The position numbers were made by a program, and so were the translations under genes. The notes beneath the pieces were generated by a model. It made no database searches and was not told where the DNA came from. It saw only the letters and a list, made by a program, of their open reading frames with translations. Below are positions 10,031 to 62,447 of a DNA stretch of 64,000 bases, in pieces (within the stretch, counting starts at the first letter, position 1; the number at the start of each line of letters is the position of its first letter). The stretch covers positions 100,432-164,431 of the forward strand of contig JBMNEO010000005.1 of NCBI GenBank assembly GCA_050948825.1. The letters run 5' to 3'. Source of the DNA: Dethiobacteria bacterium (GTDB lineage: Bacteria > Bacillota > Dethiobacteria > DTU022 > UBA8154).

Positions 10031-10345
10031 AAAATAAAAACTTCCGCCCCATAGGGACGGAAGTATAACTTCACGCGGTACCACCCTGGTTAGGCTAGAA
10101 TAGAAGCCTCCCTCTTAAAGGGTACGGACCGTAACAATCCCGGCCTTATACCCCCTCCCTTTTAACGGCGGGAGTTTCCGTCAAAGCCTACTCACCGGAA
10201 TGAATAGCCACTGGCTGGTTTTCGGTTTGCTTTTCAGGGGTGTATTTGGGCAACTTACGACACCGGGTCACACCTTCCCCCGGCTCTCTGCAGTCGATCG
10301 GAATGCCTACTTATCCCCGTCATCAGTTTTTTCGTTTTACTTATG
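10031..10345 (-). promoter_or_regulatory. T-box riboswitch leader (Tyr specifier UAC) preceding aroF-tyrA-aroCBEKQH
   Basis: Minus-strand reading shows, in order: a putative Stem I with an S-turn (AGUA) and AGAGAG; a specifier loop CAAAUACA (UAC at + coords 10242-10244); the T-box sequence AACCAGGGTGGTACCGCG (revcomp of 10074-10091); and a terminator hairpin cttccgtccctatggggcggaag with a U-tract (10036-10063). Confidence 0.6.
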
Positions 10346-10481: not shown

Positions 10482-10793
10482 ATATTAAAATAGTAATGGC
10501 AATGAAAGAGGAAAGTAAACTGGTATTGTATGCTACAGAGAGGCGGGGCCGCGGCTGAAAGTCCTGCCGGCTAAGCACCCGGTTGAAGTTCCCTCCGGAG
10601 CTGCAGGCTGAAACCCATTTTATTAAAGGTTACCGGTTAAGTAGGCTGTGCCGGTTTTTTCAACCGTTAAAAGCGAAACAGGAATCGGATTCTTTAAACG
10701 GAATCCCGCTCCTGACAGAGTGGGCTTATTTTGGCCAACCAGGGTGGTACCGCGGAAACGACTTTCTGTCCCTCAGGGCAGAAAGTTTTTTTT
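10482..10793 (+). promoter_or_regulatory. T-box riboswitch leader (candidate Phe specifier UUC) preceding the second DAHP synthase and pheA
   Basis: AGUA and AGAGAG Stem I elements; loop GAAGUUC (UUC at 10589-10591); T-box AACCAGGGTGGTACCGCGG at 10737-10755; terminator ctttctgtccctcagggcagaaag plus U8 at 10762-10793. Confidence 0.55.
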
Positions 10794-37031: not shown

Positions 37032-38516
37032 TTATTTCTCCCCTGGAGGTGAAGTGTCGGTATCACGTGTCTTTAAAAAAGAAGGTCTGAACCCTTTAAC
37101 CGGTACCGGTTTTCGAAATAAAACATTAAAAAGAGCTTTGCCGTTGAACGGTAGCAGAGGCCATAAATAGGGAAGATTAAATGAGCGGGTAGTAATCAGT
37201 CTGAGGAATACAATCAATAATCCGGCGACAAACCCGTAGATTTGGAAAATCCCCGTTAATAACAACAAAAAAAGATGCACCAGCCTGTTTGCCAAACCCA
37301 GTTCCCAGCTGGGAGTAGAAAAAATTCCTACTGCTACCAGTCCTATATATAGCAATACCTCAGGAACAAAAATCCCTACTGTAACTGCAATATCACCAAT
37401 TAACAGTGCTCCGACAAGCCCCAGGGCAGTGGCAAGCGGAGATGGGGTATGAATACTGGCCATCCGCAATAAATCAAGACCGATATTTGCTAAAATAAAT
37501 TGCAGAAAAAGCGGCAGGGCGGCCTCTCCTTTAGGGCCAATAAATTGTAAAGCCTCCGGCAGCATTTCGCTGTAATCTGCTAATAAAAGCCAGATGGGAA
37601 CCAAAAAAATTGAAATAAAAATGCCCAGCAGGCGAACCCAGCGAATATATACCCCCACAATGGGGTTATGCCTAAATTCCTCTGCATGCTGGATATGGTG
37701 AAAATATGTAACGGGGGCGATCATCACGGAAGGGGATGTATCTACGATAATACACACATGCCCCTCCAGCAGATGCACTGCGGCTACATCCGGCCTTTCC
37801 GTGTAACGTACCTCGGGAAAAGGATTCCAAAAATCAGCGGTGATAAATTCTTCAACTGTTTTTTCCGCCATCGGCAAACCATCAACATCTATTTTTAAAA
37901 GCCTGCTTCTTATCTCCTCCAGGATGGCAGGATTGATGATGTCTTCAATATATAACAGCGTAACATCCGTTAAAGACCTGCTGCCGATAGTAATTGCTTC
38001 GACCCTCAACTTCGGATCCCTCAATCTTCTTCTAATGAGGGCAACGTTAAAGAGCATCGTTTCTACAAAACCATCTCTCGAGCCGCGTGTAATTTTTTCG
38101 ATATCGGGCTCATCGGGTTGCCTGGAAGGGTACTGCCGGATATCTAAAATGATGATTTTTTTTTCGCCATCTATTAAAAATACAAGCGGGCCGCCTAAAA
38201 CCTCATTGGCCGCCTCTTCAAGATTATCAACTAAGGTGATTTCTCCATAAGGTAACAATTGAGCAGTGATTTTCTCCAACGGATTGGGCACAATATCCTC
38301 CTGTTTTGCATCCAGGAGCGTTTGCATGATATAGATAATTACCTCTCCATTGGCAAAAGCGTCCAGAAAAACAAAGGCTACTTTTTTGCGGCCAATTTTA
38401 AACTCCCTTAAAATAACGTCGAAGCTAATACCGATTCCCAGTTCCCTACGAAAATAATCGATATTGTCCTCGATTTTGGGATAGATAAATGTTTTATCTG
38501 CTGTCTTTGTCGGCAT
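37032..38516 (-). CDS. spoVAF: Stage V sporulation protein AF (GerA-family spore germination protein)
   Basis: 494 aa; N-terminal soluble domain plus C-terminal polytopic membrane domain of the GerAA family; last gene of the spoVA cluster. Confidence 0.7.
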   Translation of the reverse strand: MPTKTADKTFIYPKIEDNIDYFRRELGIGISFDVILREFKIGRKKVAFVFLDAFANGEVIIYIMQTLLDAKQEDIVPNPLEKITAQLLPYGEITLVDNLEEAANEVLGGPLVFLIDGEKKIIILDIRQYPSRQPDEPDIEKITRGSRDGFVETMLFNVALIRRRLRDPKLRVEAITIGSRSLTDVTLLYIEDIINPAILEEIRSRLLKIDVDGLPMAEKTVEEFITADFWNPFPEVRYTERPDVAAVHLLEGHVCIIVDTSPSVMIAPVTYFHHIQHAEEFRHNPIVGVYIRWVRLLGIFISIFLVPIWLLLADYSEMLPEALQFIGPKGEAALPLFLQFILANIGLDLLRMASIHTPSPLATALGLVGALLIGDIAVTVGIFVPEVLLYIGLVAVGIFSTPSWELGLANRLVHLFLLLLTGIFQIYGFVAGLLIVFLRLITTRSFNLPYLWPLLPFNGKALFNVLFRKPVPVKGFRPSFLKTRDTDTSPPGEK

Positions 38517-38535: not shown

Positions 38536-38889
38536 CTATCCTTTCGGCTTAAAACATATCGCCATAATAAAACCGAAAATAATAGCGGCCGTTATTCCCG
38601 TAGAAGTAAGTTCAAACATACCGGTTAATACTCCTATTACCCCTGTACGGGCAGCTTCCGACATGGCACCTTTTGCCAGGGAATTACCGAAACTGGAGAT
38701 GGGAAGCAGCGCACCCGCACCGGCAAAATCAATTAGACGGTCATAAAGGCCGAGCCCTCCCAGGATACCACCTCCTATGGTAAAACCGGTTAAGATATGA
38801 CCCGGGGTCAACGGGGTCAGATCAAATAACAATTGCCCGATAATGCAAATAATACCGCCCACTATAAAGGCCGTAAAATAATTACCCAA
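38536..38889 (-). CDS. spoVAE: Stage V sporulation protein AE (AEb-like)
   Basis: 117 aa membrane protein, …GFTIGGGILGGLGLYD…. Confidence 0.7.
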   Translation of the reverse strand: MGNYFTAFIVGGIICIIGQLLFDLTPLTPGHILTGFTIGGGILGGLGLYDRLIDFAGAGALLPISSFGNSLAKGAMSEAARTGVIGVLTGMFELTSTGITAAIIFGFIMAICFKPKG

Positions 38890-38911: not shown

Positions 38912-39931
38912 TTATATTTCCAGTGAAACGGCATGAGCAATACAGGGAATGCTTTCCTGCTGCAATACCGTAGTAGGGCTGTGGAGGGCCCCGGTGGCTA
39001 CGAGCAGGACTTTACGGAGTTCTTTTGACATCATTTTACGATAAAAATGGCCCAAAAAAACCAGGGCTGAGGAGGCACACCCGCTGGCCCCAGGACCGGC
39101 TTTCTGATGCGGATAGTATAATAAAACACCGCAATCGGCATAATTCGCCTGGATATCATATCCCTTACCCGCAAGGATATCTTCATTTAATTTTTTCCCA
39201 ACCCCGCCCAGATCACCCGTAAGGATTATGTTGTAGTAAGACGGATTTCTATCCAGATCAATGAAATGATTGTATATCGTATCAGCTGCTGCTCCCGCCA
39301 TTGCCGCACCGAGAGCAAGAGGGTCTTTGATACCGGCATCAACTACTTTACCTGTAGTAATTGATTCCACACGGGGACCTTCCCCCCCGCACCCCAGAAC
39401 AACCGCCCCCGCTCCTGTTGCGGTCCACTGCGCGTAACCCGGCCTCTGGAAACCATATTCTGTTGGGTAGCGATACTGCCTCTCTGCACTGCAGTTATGG
39501 CTGGACGTGCCGGTAAGGATGCGTTTTGCAAAACCGCCCTCGATCAACATTGCTCCCAGGGATAACCCTTCCGCAAAGGTTGAACATGCGCCATAAATAC
39601 CCAGGAAAGGGATAGCAAGCTTTCTGGCACAAAAAGAAGCTGTTACCACCTGGTTGAGAAGATCTCCGGCGATAAACAAATCTATATCATCCGGAGTAAG
39701 CGTTGCCTTACCCAGTGACAGGTAACATGCCTCTTCCAGCATGTGACACTCTGCTTTTTCAAAACTTTTTTCTTTAATAATATTATCGCTGTAGATGCGA
39801 TCAAAATCGGCCGACAAAGGCCCCAAACCTTCTTTGGGGCCTGCAACCGTTGCTGAGGAAAGCAGCATTATATCTCTTTCCAGAAGCACACTCTGTTTCC
39901 CAATTTTCCTTTCAACTGTAAGAGTTTGCAA
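38912..39931 (-). CDS. spoVAD: Stage V sporulation protein AD
   Basis: 339 aa, thiolase/KAS-like fold (…GKQSVLLERD…CSTFAEGL…). Confidence 0.85.
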   Translation of the reverse strand: MQTLTVERKIGKQSVLLERDIMLLSSATVAGPKEGLGPLSADFDRIYSDNIIKEKSFEKAECHMLEEACYLSLGKATLTPDDIDLFIAGDLLNQVVTASFCARKLAIPFLGIYGACSTFAEGLSLGAMLIEGGFAKRILTGTSSHNCSAERQYRYPTEYGFQRPGYAQWTATGAGAVVLGCGGEGPRVESITTGKVVDAGIKDPLALGAAMAGAAADTIYNHFIDLDRNPSYYNIILTGDLGGVGKKLNEDILAGKGYDIQANYADCGVLLYYPHQKAGPGASGCASSALVFLGHFYRKMMSKELRKVLLVATGALHSPTTVLQQESIPCIAHAVSLEI

Positions 39932-39958: not shown

Positions 39959-40387
39959 TTAGATTAATGCCGATATAAGCCCAACAACAAAAGCGGTTAC
40001 CACGCCGAAAACAATGATCGAGCCGGCCAGGGCGAACATCTTTGACCCTGTTCCTGTGACTAGCCCTTCTCTTCTAAATTCCATCGCCATGGAAGTTACA
40101 GAATTGGCAAACCCTGTTACAGGAACTGCAATACCCGCTCCTGCCAGCTGGGCAATATCATCGAAAACCCCTGCAGCAGTAAGCGATGCTGCAATAAAAA
40201 TAACGGTTGCGACAGTCGGGTTTCCCGCTTCCTGTTGAGGAATGCCTAAGGAAATATAAATATTTAAAATTAGCTGGCCGAACATACATATCAAACCTCC
40301 AAAAATAAAAGCATAGATGATATTTTTTATGATTGGAGGTTTAGGTTGTTTTAACCGCTGCCAGTTGTTGATCCAATTCCTATCAAT
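39959..40387 (-). CDS. spoVAC: Stage V sporulation protein AC (no canonical start codon at the homologous N-terminus)
   Basis: Homology to SpoVAC runs from …DRNWINNWQRLKQPKPPIIKNIIYAFIFGGLICMFGQ… through the track ORF; the frame is open to 40486 with no ATG/GTG/TTG; an in-frame ATT (revcomp of 40385-40387) lies 7 nt after AAGGA. Confidence 0.6.
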   Translation of the reverse strand: MDRNWINNWQRLKQPKPPIIKNIIYAFIFGGLICMFGQLILNIYISLGIPQQEAGNPTVATVIFIAASLTAAGVFDDIAQLAGAGIAVPVTGFANSVTSMAMEFRREGLVTGTGSKMFALAGSIIVFGVVTAFVVGLISALI

Positions 40388-40446
40388 TAGAATATCCTTT
40401 GTTTCTTTGGTGGAACTAATCGTTCTACACTTCCCTTTGAAGCCGG

Positions 40447-40650
40447 CTACTGGCGTACACCGAAGGCTAGCTTTACATTGGCTTTATACTCCACAACATC
40501 ACCGTCAGATACATTTGCGGTCAGATTTAATACCTCAACCCCTGTAATCCCCTCCACAGTATCAGAAGCCCTCATTACCGCATCCCTGACCGCATCCTCC
40601 CAGCCCTCGGTTGATTCGCCGATTAACTCAATTACCTTTGCTACTCCCAT
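40447..40650 (-). CDS. Dodecin family flavin-binding protein
   Basis: 67 aa; MGVAKVIELIGESTEGWEDAVRDAV…. Confidence 0.55.
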   Translation of the reverse strand: MGVAKVIELIGESTEGWEDAVRDAVMRASDTVEGITGVEVLNLTANVSDGDVVEYKANVKLAFGVRQ

Positions 40651-40779
40651 TTCCTTCTCCTTTCTATTGATTTTGAATTGATTAGGTTTGTTGATTTGGA
40701 TCTGTTAATTGAATCTAGTTTATACATTAACCTTCTAGCCTTCGATAGTTTGCCTCATTATTTTATCTTCTATTCCAAC

Positions 40780-40874
40780 GCGACAAAGAGCTGCGACAGG
40801 GTGCTGCAAGTTGCGACAGTGAGAACCGTCCCCTATGTCGCACGTGCGACATAGGGGACGGTTCTCACTGTCGC
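40780..40874. repeat. 62-bp perfect palindrome (40813-40874) with six GCGACA/TGTCGC hexamers
   Basis: gcgacagtgagaaccgtcccctatgtcgcac | gtgcgacataggggacggttctcactgtcgc; extra GCGACA copies at 40780 and 40793. Confidence 0.8.
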
Positions 40875-41150
40875 AATGTTGGGTGGTGATGACGGGACGG
40901 GAACGCCGGGGCGCCTGTTCTTCTGGTGGCAAAAGAGAAGTAACCAAAAAGAAGGAAAATACTGTCATCAAAATAATTACGATCAAAATTAGTATTAAAA
41001 AATGTTGTGTATCCTTTGACAATAGAATATTCCTCCTGAGGTTATGCTCTTTTTTCTATTATTCTCGTATCCGGTTTTTTTATTTATAAAAAAAAGGCCT
41101 TCTGCAAGCCTCTTTTTAGGTAATGACATTATATATGCTGAAGGATTTTC

Positions 41151-41837
41151 TCAGGGTTTTTCCTTTAACTGCCTGATAACCTGCCTTTCCAACCGCGAAA
41201 CATGGGATTGGGATATCCCGAGCATTTTGGCTACCTCCTCCTGGCTCTTTTCCAAAAAATATCTTAAAACAATAATTTGCCTTTCACGCGGAGGAAGCAA
41301 ATTCAACTTTTCTTTTAGGAATATTCTATCAAAAAAGCTGTCGGTATCGCCAGGTACAGAGCCTTCTTCTTGCAAAGGCATGACCGGATGCTGAAGCTCC
41401 ATCAACCAGACAATTTCTTCTTTTGGCAGACCCATTTTTTCGGCAAGCTCTTCCAATCGCGGGCGGCGTTTTAATTTTTGCTGCAGTTCATCTCTATTCT
41501 GCAGGAGTTGAAGATAATGATTGTGATAGGAACGCGATACTTTAAACAGATGACCGTTACGGCGTAAAAATGATTTGATCTCACCGAGGATAAAAGGAAC
41601 AGCATACGTTGAAAACTTCGTTTCTCTGTCAGGATCATAATTATTGAGGGCTTTAAGCAGCCCCAGGCAACCTTCCTGGAAAATATCGTCATATTCAATT
41701 ATATCCAGAGGATACCTCCTGCAGAGGGCATGTACTAAAGGCAGGTGATAATTAACAACCTTTTCCCGGGCTTCGGGATCACCTTGTTTATTTTTAAGGT
41801 AGAGCTCTCGCAGTTGCTCTTCAGTGTACTCCGGCAT
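41151..41837 (-). CDS. sigF: RNA polymerase sporulation sigma factor SigF
   Basis: 228 aa sigma-70 family; follows spoIIAA-spoIIAB. Confidence 0.8.
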   Translation of the reverse strand: MPEYTEEQLRELYLKNKQGDPEAREKVVNYHLPLVHALCRRYPLDIIEYDDIFQEGCLGLLKALNNYDPDRETKFSTYAVPFILGEIKSFLRRNGHLFKVSRSYHNHYLQLLQNRDELQQKLKRRPRLEELAEKMGLPKEEIVWLMELQHPVMPLQEEGSVPGDTDSFFDRIFLKEKLNLLPPRERQIIVLRYFLEKSQEEVAKMLGISQSHVSRLERQVIRQLKEKP

Positions 41838-41867: not shown

Positions 41868-42305
41868 TTAATGATTGTTTTCAGCAACCCTGCCAAAGAC
41901 CTTTGACATTTTAACAGCCGTTCCCTTTCCCGGCGCAGATTCAACTCTTACCTCATCCATGAAATTTTCCATAATCGTAAAACCCATTCCGGATCTCTCC
42001 AGTTCCGGTTTTTCTGTGTAAAGCGGTTCACGGGCCCTGGCGATATCTTCAATGCCTTTCCCGGAATCATATATTTCCACAGTTAACTGCCGTTCATCAA
42101 CATAAGCGCTTATTTTAATAATACCGCGATCATCTTCATCATAGGCATGTAAAATGCTATTTGTAACCGCTTCCGAGACCGCAGTTTTTACTTCGTTTAG
42201 CTCCTCAAGGGTAGGATCGAGGCGTGCTGCAAAAGCAGCGATAACAACTCTCACAAAACCTTCATTCTCTGATCTTGCGGGGACTTCAAGCATCATATAG
42301 TTCAT
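41868..42305 (-). CDS. spoIIAB: Anti-sigma F factor (serine kinase)
   Basis: 145 aa; GHKL ATPase motifs (…EAVTNSILHAY… DSGKGIED…). Confidence 0.9.
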   Translation of the reverse strand: MNYMMLEVPARSENEGFVRVVIAAFAARLDPTLEELNEVKTAVSEAVTNSILHAYDEDDRGIIKISAYVDERQLTVEIYDSGKGIEDIARAREPLYTEKPELERSGMGFTIMENFMDEVRVESAPGKGTAVKMSKVFGRVAENNH

Positions 42306-42363: not shown

Positions 42364-42705
42364 TCAATCCAGGTTGGCTATTGCCTTACTTTCATCGCTG
42401 CAAACCGGAATAATCTTTAACAGGCCTCCCATCTCCAGGATCTTTTTATTATGCGTTTTTAATCCACAGATTATGACCTTCCCCCCCCTGGCCTTAATCT
42501 GTTTATAACGTCCCAGGATAACACCAATACCGGAACTGTCCATGAAAGTCAAATTTGTCATATTTAAAATTAAGTTCTGTACATGATCATTTTTTTCTAA
42601 TTCTTTATCTACTGTCTGGCGAAAAACAAAAGAAGTGTGGTGGTCTAATTCACCCTTAAAGCGTGCAATAAGGTTTTTTTTTCTTCTGATAAGCTGGACC
42701 TGCAA
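42364..42705 (-). CDS. spoIIAA: Anti-sigma F factor antagonist (STAS domain)
   Basis: 113 aa; …LTFMDSSGIGVILGRYK…. Confidence 0.85.
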   Translation of the reverse strand: MQVQLIRRKKNLIARFKGELDHHTSFVFRQTVDKELEKNDHVQNLILNMTNLTFMDSSGIGVILGRYKQIKARGGKVIICGLKTHNKKILEMGGLLKIIPVCSDESKAIANLD

Positions 42706-61829: not shown

Positions 61830-62441
61830 CCTGTTTTTTTTCAAAACTTGTTGCACCTCGATAAATAAAAAGGACATAAGTGGCAACCCTATGAGTAAAC
61901 TTTGCGGCTTAAGGTCCAGCAGGTTTTCCCAAATGCCCGCCTGCCTGTCACCAGGCAGGCAGTTTCCTTTTAAGAGCATTTCTGCCGTGTTGCCAACAGC
62001 AGGGCTGGATTACCACTCAGACCACACTTTAATCCCCACAGGGCTTCTCACCGGTGAAAACAGCCTAGGAGTTTTCCTCAATGGCACATTTAACGTTTTC
62101 TATCCTCTTTTGCAGCACTGGTTTCCTAAGGATGTACCTTTCTCCCCCAGAACCACTCAAGGCAGGCTACACTGTGCACAGTTTCTGCCGCACACAGGTT
62201 CAAGCCTAAGCCGTAACCTTTTACCTGTCGGTAATGCGCCACCAACTTAGGTCTCCACGAAGGCAGGGTCAACGCCTACATGCCTTTGTAGATCGCCCCA
62301 TCCTTCTTAACTCCCAGCACCAACCCCCGACTGGGCTTCGGCAGCCAGCACCAGGAACTTCATCGATATGCCCTAAACGGATTTTTAGGCCCGTTTTCAA
62401 AAACGATGTGCCAACTAGGATACTGCACCACCTACGTCCTG
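61830..62441 (-). ncRNA. ole: Candidate OLE (ornate, large, extremophilic) RNA
   Basis: About 600 nt with no credible ORF, between ispA and the small membrane protein, upstream of dxs (the canonical OLE locus); highly structured GC-rich helices (e.g. ctgcctgcctggtgacaggcaggcgg); its own promoter lies immediately after the ispA stop. Confidence 0.5.
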
Positions 62442-62447
62442 ATTAAA

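What the first reader, a model, noticed from the sequence alone, without database searches (positions are those of the whole stretch)
40780..40874. Perfect 62-bp palindrome flanked by repeated GCGACA/TGTCGC hexamers between the dodecin gene and sigF
Positions 40813-40843 are exactly reverse-complementary to 40844-40874. This gives a 31-bp arm with no mismatches and a CACGTG centre, and by RNA folding a stem of about 29 bp. No U-tract follows on either strand, so it is not a standard intrinsic terminator. Six copies of GCGACA/TGTCGC occur within 95 bp (40780, 40793, 40813, 40836, 40846, 40869). TGTCGCA is one substitution from the Spo0A 0A-box TGTCGAA. The element lies roughly 160-270 bp upstream of the dodecin start and roughly 400-480 bp upstream of the spoVAC homology start, and about 280 bp downstream of sigF. 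An element this long and perfect is unusual. It could be a high-affinity operator for a dimeric or oligomeric regulator, a cruciform or recombination hotspot, a processed RNA stem, or an assembly artefact (hairpin chimera). A 95-aa ORF on the minus strand runs straight through it and is probably spurious in that part.
Basis: seen in the sequence. Interest (0 to 1): 0.7.

Follow-up and report, generated by a model that had tools for sequence, protein, structure and literature searches.

The report
Inverted pair of a dispersed hairpin repeat
The perfect palindrome is real, but it is two back-to-back copies of a roughly 30-base hairpin repeat that is scattered through this uncultured spore-former's genome, so it is repeat DNA that landed in the tail of a small gene and not a dedicated control site for the sporulation genes.

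Summary
Arms 40811-40843 and 40844-40876 are 33 nt and 100% complementary with no spacer. The palindrome is unique in the window and appears in independent assemblies, so it is not an artefact.

It is not a site-specific operator. It is a head-to-head doublet of a ~29-32-nt hairpin unit, (G)TGCGACAG-TGAGAACCGTCCC-(0-4 nt)-CTGTCGCA(C). The same unit occurs as singlets, direct pairs and inverted pairs in at least seven unrelated genomic contexts. At least three of these are in the window's own Dethiobacteria species.

At the sigF/spoVA locus, the nearest outgroup has none, one sister lineage has a single unit, and another has unit + 17-nt partial copy + inverted unit. The two flanking hexamers are decayed unit ends and are not conserved.

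The 95-aa ORF is a real, conserved small membrane-protein gene only for about its first 46 codons. The palindrome merely lengthens its unconserved tail. A conserved forespore-type promoter for dodecin-spoVA lies just downstream.

The closest known kind is REP/BIME/REPIN-like repeats. Two contexts lie inside reading frames, as with Rickettsia palindromic elements. The mobilising enzyme and any local RNA role remain untested. It is a new member of a known kind, of modest interest.

The parts
40811..40876 (.). 66-bp perfect palindrome, formed by two hairpin-repeat units abutted head-to-head. The CACGTG centre is the junction of ...TGTCGCAC and GTGCGACA...
   Evidence: The same structure is in L001 and L007.
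40812..40842 (+). Repeat unit copy 1: TGCGACAGTGAGAACCGTCCCCTATGTCGCA. It has a 7-bp stem (TGCGACA/TGTCGCA) and a loop carrying the family's conserved core GAGAACCGTCCCC.
   Evidence: The same unit occurs in other contexts.
40845..40875 (-). Repeat unit copy 2, the exact reverse complement of copy 1.
40780..40798 (-). Two flanking TGTCGC hexamers (40780-40785 and 40793-40798). On the minus strand they read CCCTGTCGCA and CTTTGTCGCG, which are decayed 3' ends of further units. They are not conserved in close relatives.
   Evidence: Similar partial unit ends sit next to units in L026 and L021.
40735..41022 (-). 95-aa ORF with an AGGAGG-N8-TTG start. Codons 1-46 (40885-41022) encode a conserved small membrane protein: a TM helix followed by S..P.EE..PRRSRPV. 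Codons 49-70 are the palindrome read in frame (CDSENRPLCRTCDIGDGSHCR). The rest is unconserved tail.
   Evidence: (20 differences from L006, split 3/2/15 by codon position; 15 synonymous and 3 non-synonymous codons)
40746..40775 (-). Forespore-type (sigma-F/G-like) promoter motif GAATA-N18-CAAACTA upstream of dodecin-spoVAC/D/E/F. It is conserved in all relatives, with or without the repeat.
   Evidence: The assignment to a sigma factor rests on consensus knowledge and was not tested.
41081..41117 (-). Terminator-like hairpin plus U8 directly after sigF. It separates sigF from the small gene.
   Evidence: conserved; -12.8 kcal/mol

Best explanation
The palindrome is an inverted doublet of a short dispersed hairpin repeat. 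The unit is (G)TGCGACAG - TGAGAACCGTCCC - 0-4 nt - CTGTCGCA(C), about 29-32 nt. It belongs to the genome of an uncultured Dethiobacteria-class spore-former and its sister species. It works like REP/BIME/REPIN elements. Units sit mostly just downstream of genes, occur singly, in direct pairs or in inverted pairs, and expand or contract locally.

Shown: at this locus the repeat entered the variable stretch between the conserved core of a small membrane-protein gene and the conserved forespore promoter of the dodecin-spoVA operon. This happened in the common ancestor of three closely related lineages.

Inferred: the two arms are kept identical by hairpin-templated copying (template switching) or by selection on the hairpin. 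That would explain why the palindrome is perfect. Spread to new sites probably needs a hairpin-recognising enzyme acting in trans, of the HUH/Y1 transposase type, which has not been found.

Local consequences are incidental. The small ORF is lengthened by about 45 unconserved codons. Its transcript also carries a very stable hairpin near its 3' end, which may protect that end or hinder read-through into spoVA.
For: Dispersal:
- The 19-mer ACAGTGAGAACCGTCCCCT hits 8 metagenome contigs.
- The contexts are sigF-dodecin, inside uppS in frame, ECH/GTPase, CapA/PP2C, 3D-domain/speD and AraC/LacI. Related copies lie in RsmB/SEC-C.

Same genome:
- SigF, acyl-CoA dehydrogenase, PP2C and CapA of the sister species share NCBI accession blocks NLL21065-21879 and MGI6317143-6319310. 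The ECH/GTPase and CapA/PP2C loci lie on two contigs of one assembly, GCA_050948805.1.
- The window's own species is identified by SigF MGI6328313 and PP2C MGI6328490, from the same samples ERZ2648087, SRR31066035 and ERZ21942150. It has a second perfect 31-nt-arm doublet between CapA and PP2C, and further copies by RsmB.

Lineage-restricted insertion at this locus:
- L010 (SigF 80% identical) has an empty site.
- L008 has one unit.
- The window has two abutted units.
- L006 and L009 have unit + 17-nt partial copy + inverted unit, with 31-nt arms 100% complementary.
- L027 has an extra 43-nt tandem copy.

Arm co-variation:
- The window and L006 differ at arm positions 24 and 31, mirrored in both arms.
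- At CapA/PP2C, lineage-specific changes including a 1-nt indel are mirrored in both arms.

The doublet, singlet and tandem-cluster architecture matches the REPIN description (PMC3116915, read). In-frame carriage by ORFs has a precedent in Rickettsia palindromic elements (PMC10969869).
Against: - Copy density looks low. There is one locus in this 64-kb window and only 8 contigs among 241 million metagenome records. Classical REPs are far denser.
- No transposase of any kind lies in the ~10-kb flanks that were read. Association with a RAYT-like gene could not be tested.
- No target-site duplication or conserved target is visible.
- All structural changes actually observed are local duplications or deletions. 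None is a new insertion into a previously empty, otherwise identical site.
- The 13-nt loop is far more conserved than neutral drift would allow. It could therefore be a host-used binding site and not a purely selfish sequence.
Confidence: 0.7

Rival explanations
1. A locally selected RNA element. The 31-33-bp stem in the small gene's transcript would act as a 3'-end stabiliser, an RNase III site, or a barrier that insulates the late forespore spoVA promoter from upstream transcription. Selection on pairing would then keep the arms perfect. This reading is compatible with a repeat origin (exaptation).
For: - The predicted hairpin is extremely stable.
- Perfect arms are retained in two lineages about 10-13% diverged, with mirrored changes.
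- Five of seven contexts lie within about 100 nt downstream of a stop codon, as for REP stabilisers.
- It lies between a gene end and the next promoter.
Against: - It is absent in L010 and in all more distant relatives that keep the same gene order and promoter. It is reduced to one unit in L008.
- No U-tract follows it.
- sigF already has its own terminator.
- Mirrored changes are equally expected from hairpin-templated repair (PMC7202029, found).
Confidence: 0.15
2. A site-specific operator for a dimeric or oligomeric sporulation regulator (Spo0A-like boxes, or another factor) controlling the dodecin-spoVA promoter.
For: - Six TGTCGC/GCGACA hexamers lie in 95 bp, just upstream of the -35 element.
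- TGTCGCA is one base from the 0A-box TGTCGAA (own knowledge).
Against: - The same hexamers are the stem of a repeat found beside unrelated genes.
- The promoter is conserved without the element in L010-L015.
- The flanking hexamers are mutated in L005 and L007; in L006 one is deleted and the other mutated.
- The most conserved part is the loop, not the hexamers.
- spoVA-type promoters are read by the forespore sigma factor late in sporulation, not under Spo0A control (own knowledge).
Confidence: 0.04
3. A purely local inverted duplication made by replication template switching, with no mobility. On this view the other copies are independent or ancient and the family does not transpose.
For: - Every polymorphism seen is a local duplication or deletion.
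- Arms within a doublet are more alike than copies at different loci.
- No target-site duplication and no transposase were found.
Against: - A ~30-nt sequence with an identical 19-mer in at least seven unrelated contexts, in contigs of 35-47% GC, cannot arise independently.
- The unit is an insertion relative to L010.
Confidence: 0.08
4. The palindrome encodes a genuine Cys-rich (zinc-binding) C-terminal domain of the small membrane protein.
For: - The ORF stays open through the palindrome and reads HCDSENRPLCRTCDIGDGSHCR, which contains a CxxC.
- There is a weak, sub-threshold resemblance to the PP0621 small-protein family (E = 0.09).
Against: - The CxxC is lost in L006 (CREPSPLPRDKGDGSHC), the frame is shifted in L005 and a different frame is used in L008.
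- In 22 family representatives only residues 1-46 align.
- The mirrored arm change causes a non-synonymous I-to-K change.
Confidence: 0.02
5. An assembly or sequencing artefact (hairpin chimera).
For: Perfect spacer-less palindromes are a known artefact class.
Against: - Three assemblers give the same sequence in different samples, with neighbouring SNPs.
- Logan contigs break exactly where a real palindrome predicts.
- Evolutionary variants exist in sister species.
Confidence: 0.01

Closest known systems
REP / BIME elements and REPINs (REP doublets forming hairpins), mobilised by RAYT Y1-transposases (Bertels & Rainey 2011, PMC3116915)
   Same: - A short unit (~30 nt) that is itself an imperfect palindrome.
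- It is dispersed and mostly extragenic, close to gene 3' ends.
- It occurs as singlets and, typically, as inverted doublets that fold into a long hairpin, with or without a spacer.
- There are tandem expansions that include flanking sequence.
- A singlet plausibly derives from a doublet (L008).
- Loci are inherited vertically across sister species.
   Different: - The host is a spore-forming Bacillota class (Dethiobacteria), not Proteobacteria.
- Copy density appears much lower.
- The unit lacks the GTAG-type 5' motif.
- The conserved part is a 13-nt C-rich loop.
- Here the doublet has no spacer at all.
- No RAYT has been found or could be looked for.
- Some copies lie inside reading frames.
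Rickettsia palindromic elements (RPEs) and other MITEs that insert in frame (reviewed in PMC10969869)
   Same: A palindromic repeat is carried inside ORFs without breaking the frame. Here that is the small gene's tail and, in L020, the middle of a uppS-like gene. In both cases it adds the same peptide, DSENRPLC.../...GDGS.
   Different: - RPEs are ~100-150 bp, are specific to Rickettsia and insert in many genes.
- Here the unit is ~30 nt, only two of seven contexts are coding, and there are no terminal-repeat/target-duplication hallmarks of MITEs.
Quasipalindrome correction by replication template switching (e.g. PMC7202029)
   Same: It explains how two arms of an inverted repeat become and stay identical, including mirrored substitutions and a mirrored 1-nt indel.
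   Different: That literature describes a mutational mechanism, not an element family. It was not demonstrated for this locus.
parS (Spo0J/ParB site TGTTNCACGTGNAACA of Bacillus subtilis; own knowledge)
   Same: The central 16 bp TGTCGCACGTGCGACA match 14 of 16 positions, with two symmetric mismatches.
   Different: This centre exists only in the window-type junction. L005, L006, L008 and L009 have other centres, so the resemblance is a by-product of abutting two unit ends.

Membership tests
REP/BIME/REPIN | Short (about 20-40 nt) unit that is an imperfect palindrome | tested here: met
   The unit is 29-32 nt with a 7-9-bp stem. DNA folding energies are -5.5 to -8.5 kcal/mol, z = -3 to -5.7.
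REP/BIME/REPIN | Many copies dispersed in extragenic space of one genome | tested here: inconclusive
   At least 3 loci lie in the window's species and at least 4 in the sister species. However, there is only one locus in this 64-kb window.
REP/BIME/REPIN | Inverted doublets that fold into one hairpin (the REPIN) | tested here: met
   Seen in the window, L006/L009, L020, L023/24 and L025, and L048/L050.
REP/BIME/REPIN | A cognate RAYT (Y1/HUH transposase) gene, typically flanked by the repeats | not testable with these tools
   No transposase-like gene lies in the flanks read. The complete MAGs could not be scanned.
REP/BIME/REPIN | Conserved 5' GTAG-type tetranucleotide next to the stem (classical REPs; own knowledge) | tested here: not met
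   Units begin (G)TGCGACAG, and no GTAG is present.
MITE | Terminal inverted repeats plus target-site duplication, length about 50-500 bp | tested here: not met
   No direct duplication flanks the filled site when compared with the empty site (L010) or the singlet (L008). The unit is only ~30 nt.
Rickettsia palindromic element-like in-frame repeat | Repeat carried in frame inside protein-coding genes | tested here: met
   The small ORF remains open through the palindrome. The uppS-like ORF in L020 remains open through an inverted doublet.
Rickettsia palindromic element-like in-frame repeat | Length ~100-150 bp and membership of the RPE sequence families | tested here: not met
   The unit is ~30 nt and the doublet 66-80 nt. 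There is no Rfam or literature match to the core.
Intrinsic terminator | GC-rich hairpin followed by a U-tract | tested here: not met
   No T-run follows on either strand, and the scan finds none at this site.
Spo0A operator (0A boxes) | TGTCGAA boxes conserved upstream of a Spo0A-controlled promoter | tested here: not met
   There is no exact box. The hexamers are not conserved in relatives. The element is absent in L010-L015 although the promoter is conserved.
parS | 16-bp TGTTNCACGTGNAACA conserved at the locus | tested here: not met
   It matches 14 of 16 positions, in the window-type only. Sister lineages have different centres.

The most novel reading that the evidence does not exclude
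The repeat may not be mere selfish DNA. It could be the visible half of a previously undescribed REPIN/RAYT-like or host-domesticated hairpin system in Dethiobacteria. In that reading, the invariant C-rich loop AACCGTCCCC is recognised by a dedicated protein or RNA, and the arms are kept perfect by selection. The copy at sigF/spoVA would then have been co-opted to uncouple early (spoIIA) from late (spoVA) sporulation transcription, or to modulate the conserved small membrane protein.
Probability: 0.15. Interest if true: 0.55.

Novelty: new member of a known kind. Interest (0 to 1): 0.3.

Why it matters
The finding turns an eye-catching 'regulatory palindrome' into an ordinary class of object, a short dispersed hairpin repeat in its doublet form. 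It does so in a lineage (uncultured Dethiobacteria from anaerobic digesters) where no such family has been described.

Practical points:
- These perfect doublets break k=31 assemblies at predictable bases.
- They lengthen ORFs with repeat-encoded peptides, which can mislead annotation.
- They are hotspots of small rearrangements between strains.

The work also shows that a conserved ~50-aa membrane protein gene sits between sigF and the dodecin-spoVA operon in this class. That gene is easy to dismiss as spurious.

Tried and rejected
- **Rfam.** On the region it gave only sub-threshold eukaryotic miRNA hairpin matches. At gathering thresholds it found nothing here.
- **Pfam and NCBIfam.** No family matched the 95-aa ORF.
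- **Viral contigs.** A scan for the arm gave 0 hits.
- **BLAST.** The 66-mer against plasmids and phages gave no match.
- **Literature.** Searching the 13-nt core in either orientation gave only a chance hit in a C. elegans paper.
- **Further copies in held sequence.** blastn-short and fuzzy searches for diverged copies in the window and in the flanks of L008-L015 found none above chance.
- **Overlap with other contexts.** tblastx of the other-context contigs against the window found no shared genes.
- **Peptide query.** A composite of all open frames of the unit against 5.8 billion proteins returned only P0001, which is a dead end.
- **Considered and rejected:**
  - Tn3-type GGGG termini were rejected because both relative orientations of the units occur.
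  - A CRISPR repeat was rejected because there is no regular array.
  - attC and dif sites were rejected because no consensus is present.
  - parS was rejected because the match is 14 of 16 and the centre is not conserved.
- **L005.** This contig (2x coverage) combines a window-type left arm with an L006-type right arm. It could be a recombinant or a chimeric assembly, so I did not build on it.

Full report
**1. The observation**

Reading 40300-41500 and the repeat finder confirm the palindrome and extend it. Arms 40811-40843 and 40844-40876 are 33 nt each, 100% complementary, with no spacer and a CACGTG centre.
- It is the only long inverted repeat in the 64-kb window.
- The arm occurs nowhere else with up to 3 mismatches, and 0 of 100 shuffles gave a match.
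- Six of the window's 17 GCGACA/TGTCGC hexamers lie in 40780-40874.
- No T-run follows on either strand.
- As RNA the region folds at -76 kcal/mol, z = -10.7. As DNA the 66-mer folds at -41.7 kcal/mol.

**2. Not an artefact**

SigF's exact sequence is encoded on contigs from other samples.
- A JGI contig (L001) and a megahit k141 contig (L007) carry the same perfect 66-bp palindrome, with SNPs in the flanks.
- Three Logan contigs from three runs all end 3 nt before the centre. That is the last base of the k-mer preceding the first 31-mer lying wholly inside the palindrome. A k=31 de Bruijn graph must branch there. That Logan uses k=31 is my own knowledge.

**3. Gene context**

All genes here are on the minus strand (families):

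| Feature | Coordinates |
|---|---|
| spoIIAA | 42364-42705 |
| spoIIAB | 41868-42305 |
| sigF | 41151-41837 |
| Terminator-like hairpin + U8 | 41081-41117 |
| 95-aa ORF | 40735-41022 |
| dodecin | 40447-40650 |
| spoVAC | 39959-40294 |
| spoVAD | 38912-39931 |
| spoVAE | 38536-38889 |
| spoVAF-like | 37032-38516 |

The organism is an uncultured Dethiobacteria-class Bacillota. NCBI names the identical SigF (MGI6328313.1) and SpoVAD '[Dethiobacteria bacterium]'.

**4. The ORF is half real**

Homologues of the 95-aa ORF exist only in close relatives and differ after residue ~60 by frame changes.
- Against the sister lineage L006, the first 48 codons show 20 nucleotide differences, split 3/2/15 by codon position. 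That is 15 synonymous and 3 non-synonymous codons, a clear coding signature.
- A gene with the same N-terminus lies between sigF and dodecin in every relative recovered from GTDB genomes, with SigF identity from 91% down to 54%.
- A full HMMER search with residues 1-49 finds 22 cluster representatives of 44-86 aa that align only over residues 1-46. Invariant positions are P32, P38, R40, R42 and V44, within the motif S..P.EE..PRRSRPV.
- The tails are unrelated. The window's 95-aa version is the longest because the palindrome is read through in frame (CDSENRPLCR-T-CDIGDGSHCR).
- The CxxC this creates is lost in L006, shifted out of frame in L005 and read in another frame in L008. It is therefore not a conserved domain.

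**5. The palindrome is a lineage-restricted insertion**

The alignment of the small-gene-to-dodecin interval gives these states:

| Locus | State |
|---|---|
| L010 (outgroup, SigF 80%) | The small gene runs straight into GAATAG... with no element |
| L008 | One unit only, TGCGACAGTGAGAACCGTCCCCTTTGTCGCA |
| Window, L001, L007 | Unit + inverted unit, directly abutted |
| L006, L009, L022 | Unit + 17-nt partial direct copy + inverted unit (31-nt arms 100% complementary, 17-nt loop) |
| L027 | As L006/L009, plus a further 43-nt tandem copy |

- The window group, L008 and L006/L009 are three roughly equidistant lineages (87-93% nucleotide identity in sigF and spoVAD). L010 is the outgroup at 76-81%.
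- The motif GAATA-N17/18-(GG)nAAACTA lies immediately downstream (40775-40746). It is conserved upstream of dodecin in all lineages, with or without the element. It fits forespore sigma-F/G promoters (own knowledge), as expected for spoVA.
- The two flanking hexamers at 40780 and 40793 read CCCTGTCGCA and CTTTGTCGCG on the minus strand, so they are decayed unit 3' ends. They are mutated in L005 and L007; in L006 one is deleted and the other mutated.

**6. The unit is a dispersed repeat**

A scan of JGI metagenome contigs for ACAGTGAGAACCGTCCCCT gave 8 contigs. Two (L022, L027) are the sigF locus of the sister lineage. The others are different places:
- L020: an inverted doublet with an 11-nt spacer, in frame inside a uppS-like gene (...GQGDGSPVILEEHDSENRPLCPAP...).
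- L021: two direct units between an enoyl-CoA hydratase gene and a GTPase gene.
- L023/L024: an inverted doublet between CapA and a PP2C phosphatase gene.
- L025: an inverted doublet with a 22-nt spacer between a 3D-domain gene and speD.
- L026: a singlet with a partial duplication between AraC-type and LacI-type genes.

The consensus is (G)TGCGACAG-TGAGAACCGTCCC-(0-4 nt)-CTGTCGCA(C). The stem is 7-9 bp and the invariant core is AACCGTCCCC. The CACGTG centre in the window is simply ...TGTCGCAC abutting GTGCGACA....

**7. Several copies in one genome**

- Exact-sequence look-ups tie the sister species' SigF (NLL21879.1, MGI6318684.1) to the acyl-CoA dehydrogenase of the L021 context (NLL21601.1, MGI6319310.1). 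They tie it equally to the PP2C and CapA of the L023/24 context (NLL21065.1/NLL21066.1, MGI6317143.1). All fall in the same accession blocks.
- Both of those contexts lie on contigs of one assembly, GCA_050948805.1.
- The PP2C of the window's own species (MGI6328490.1) comes from the same samples as the window-type sigF locus. It leads to contigs L048-L052. There the CapA-PP2C spacer holds TGCGACAGAGAGAACCGTCCCCGTTGTCGCA + a 20-nt partial copy + CA + its perfect inverse.
- Two Logan contigs (L049, L051) break at that doublet, and more core copies lie beside RsmB.

**8. Dynamics**

- At ECH/GTPase, strains differ by a 37-nt tandem duplication containing a whole unit, and by two different 11-nt insertions inside a unit.
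- At CapA/PP2C, one strain group has lost 61 nt between two CGGTT microhomologies, leaving a 17-nt remnant.
- Arms co-vary. The window and L006 differ at arm positions 24 and 31, in both arms. At CapA/PP2C the lineage-specific changes, including a 1-nt indel, are mirrored.
- This points to hairpin-templated copying between arms (template switching, PMC7202029) or to selection on the hairpin. Sequence alone cannot separate the two.

**9. Comparison with known systems**

- The architecture matches REP/BIME elements and specifically REPINs (PMC3116915). It shares the short palindromic unit, inverted doublets forming a hairpin, singlets as probable remnants, and tandem clusters that include flanks.
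- Differences are the host class, the low apparent density, the absence of a GTAG motif, the conserved C-rich loop and the spacer-less form here.
- The defining RAYT association could not be tested. No transposase lies in the flanks that were read.
- In-frame carriage resembles Rickettsia palindromic elements (PMC10969869), but the size and sequence do not match.
- It is not an intrinsic terminator, not a Spo0A operator and not a conserved parS. The centre matches parS at 14 of 16 positions only in the window-type junction.

**10. Verdict**

The perfect palindrome is explained as a doublet of a newly noticed, low-copy dispersed hairpin repeat of Dethiobacteria. It sits in a variable spacer at the 3' end of a conserved small gene.
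- Its perfection is a property of the doublet form, not evidence of a dedicated regulatory site.
- A secondary RNA-level effect on the small gene or on insulation of the spoVA promoter remains possible but untested.
- It is a new member of a known kind, of modest interest.

Noticed in passing
window 61864-62447 (-): A full-length OLE (ornate large extremophilic) RNA, 475.6 bits against a gathering score of 50. This fits an anaerobic Bacillota host.
   Followed up: no
window 10050-10332 (-) and 10493-10776 (+): Two divergently oriented T-box leaders about 160 nt apart, at 108 and 98 bits.
   Followed up: no
window 40885-41022 (-); L008-L015: A conserved family of ~50-aa membrane proteins: M.K..., a TM helix, then S..P.EE..PRRSRPV. 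It is always encoded between sigF and dodecin-spoVAC in Dethiobacteria-like genomes. It has no Pfam or NCBIfam model. There are 22 representatives among 1.84 billion proteins.
   Followed up: yes
window 40447-40650 (-): A dodecin gene is the conserved first gene of the spoVAC/D/E/F cluster in all relatives found. It lies directly behind a forespore-type promoter. This is an unusual partner for spoVA genes.
   Followed up: partly
window 40295-40420 (-): The N-terminal ~42 residues of SpoVAC (TISSTKETKDILIDRNWINNWQRLKQPKPPIIKNIIYAFIFGGL) are conserved and in frame, but no ATG, GTG or TTG precedes them. An ATT at 40420-40418, about 10 nt after AAGGGAAG, is conserved in the window, L006 and L008. 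It may be the real start. Gene callers report a truncated 108-111-aa protein.
   Followed up: partly
L020 426-477 (Ga0123356_10137441): An inverted doublet of the same repeat lies in frame inside a uppS-like gene. It adds about 28 residues in a surface-loop position while the ORF stays intact.
   Followed up: partly
L038-L047 about 1190-1560; L048 1100-1440: The RsmB/SEC-C intergenic region holds a sub-type of the repeat, CAGAGAACCGTCCCCAAACTTGC. It shares the core but lacks the 3' stem partner. AACTTGC also follows the palindrome in the window at 40804-40810.
   Followed up: partly
window 40836-40851: The junction of the two units, TGTCGCACGTGCGACA, matches the B. subtilis parS consensus at 14 of 16 positions. 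About 0.11 such matches are expected per window. It is not conserved in sister lineages.
   Followed up: partly
L005 829-892 (ERZ2648087, 2x coverage): This contig combines a window-type left arm with an L006-type right arm and a 2-nt shorter centre. It is either a natural recombinant between co-occurring strains or a chimeric low-coverage assembly.
   Followed up: no
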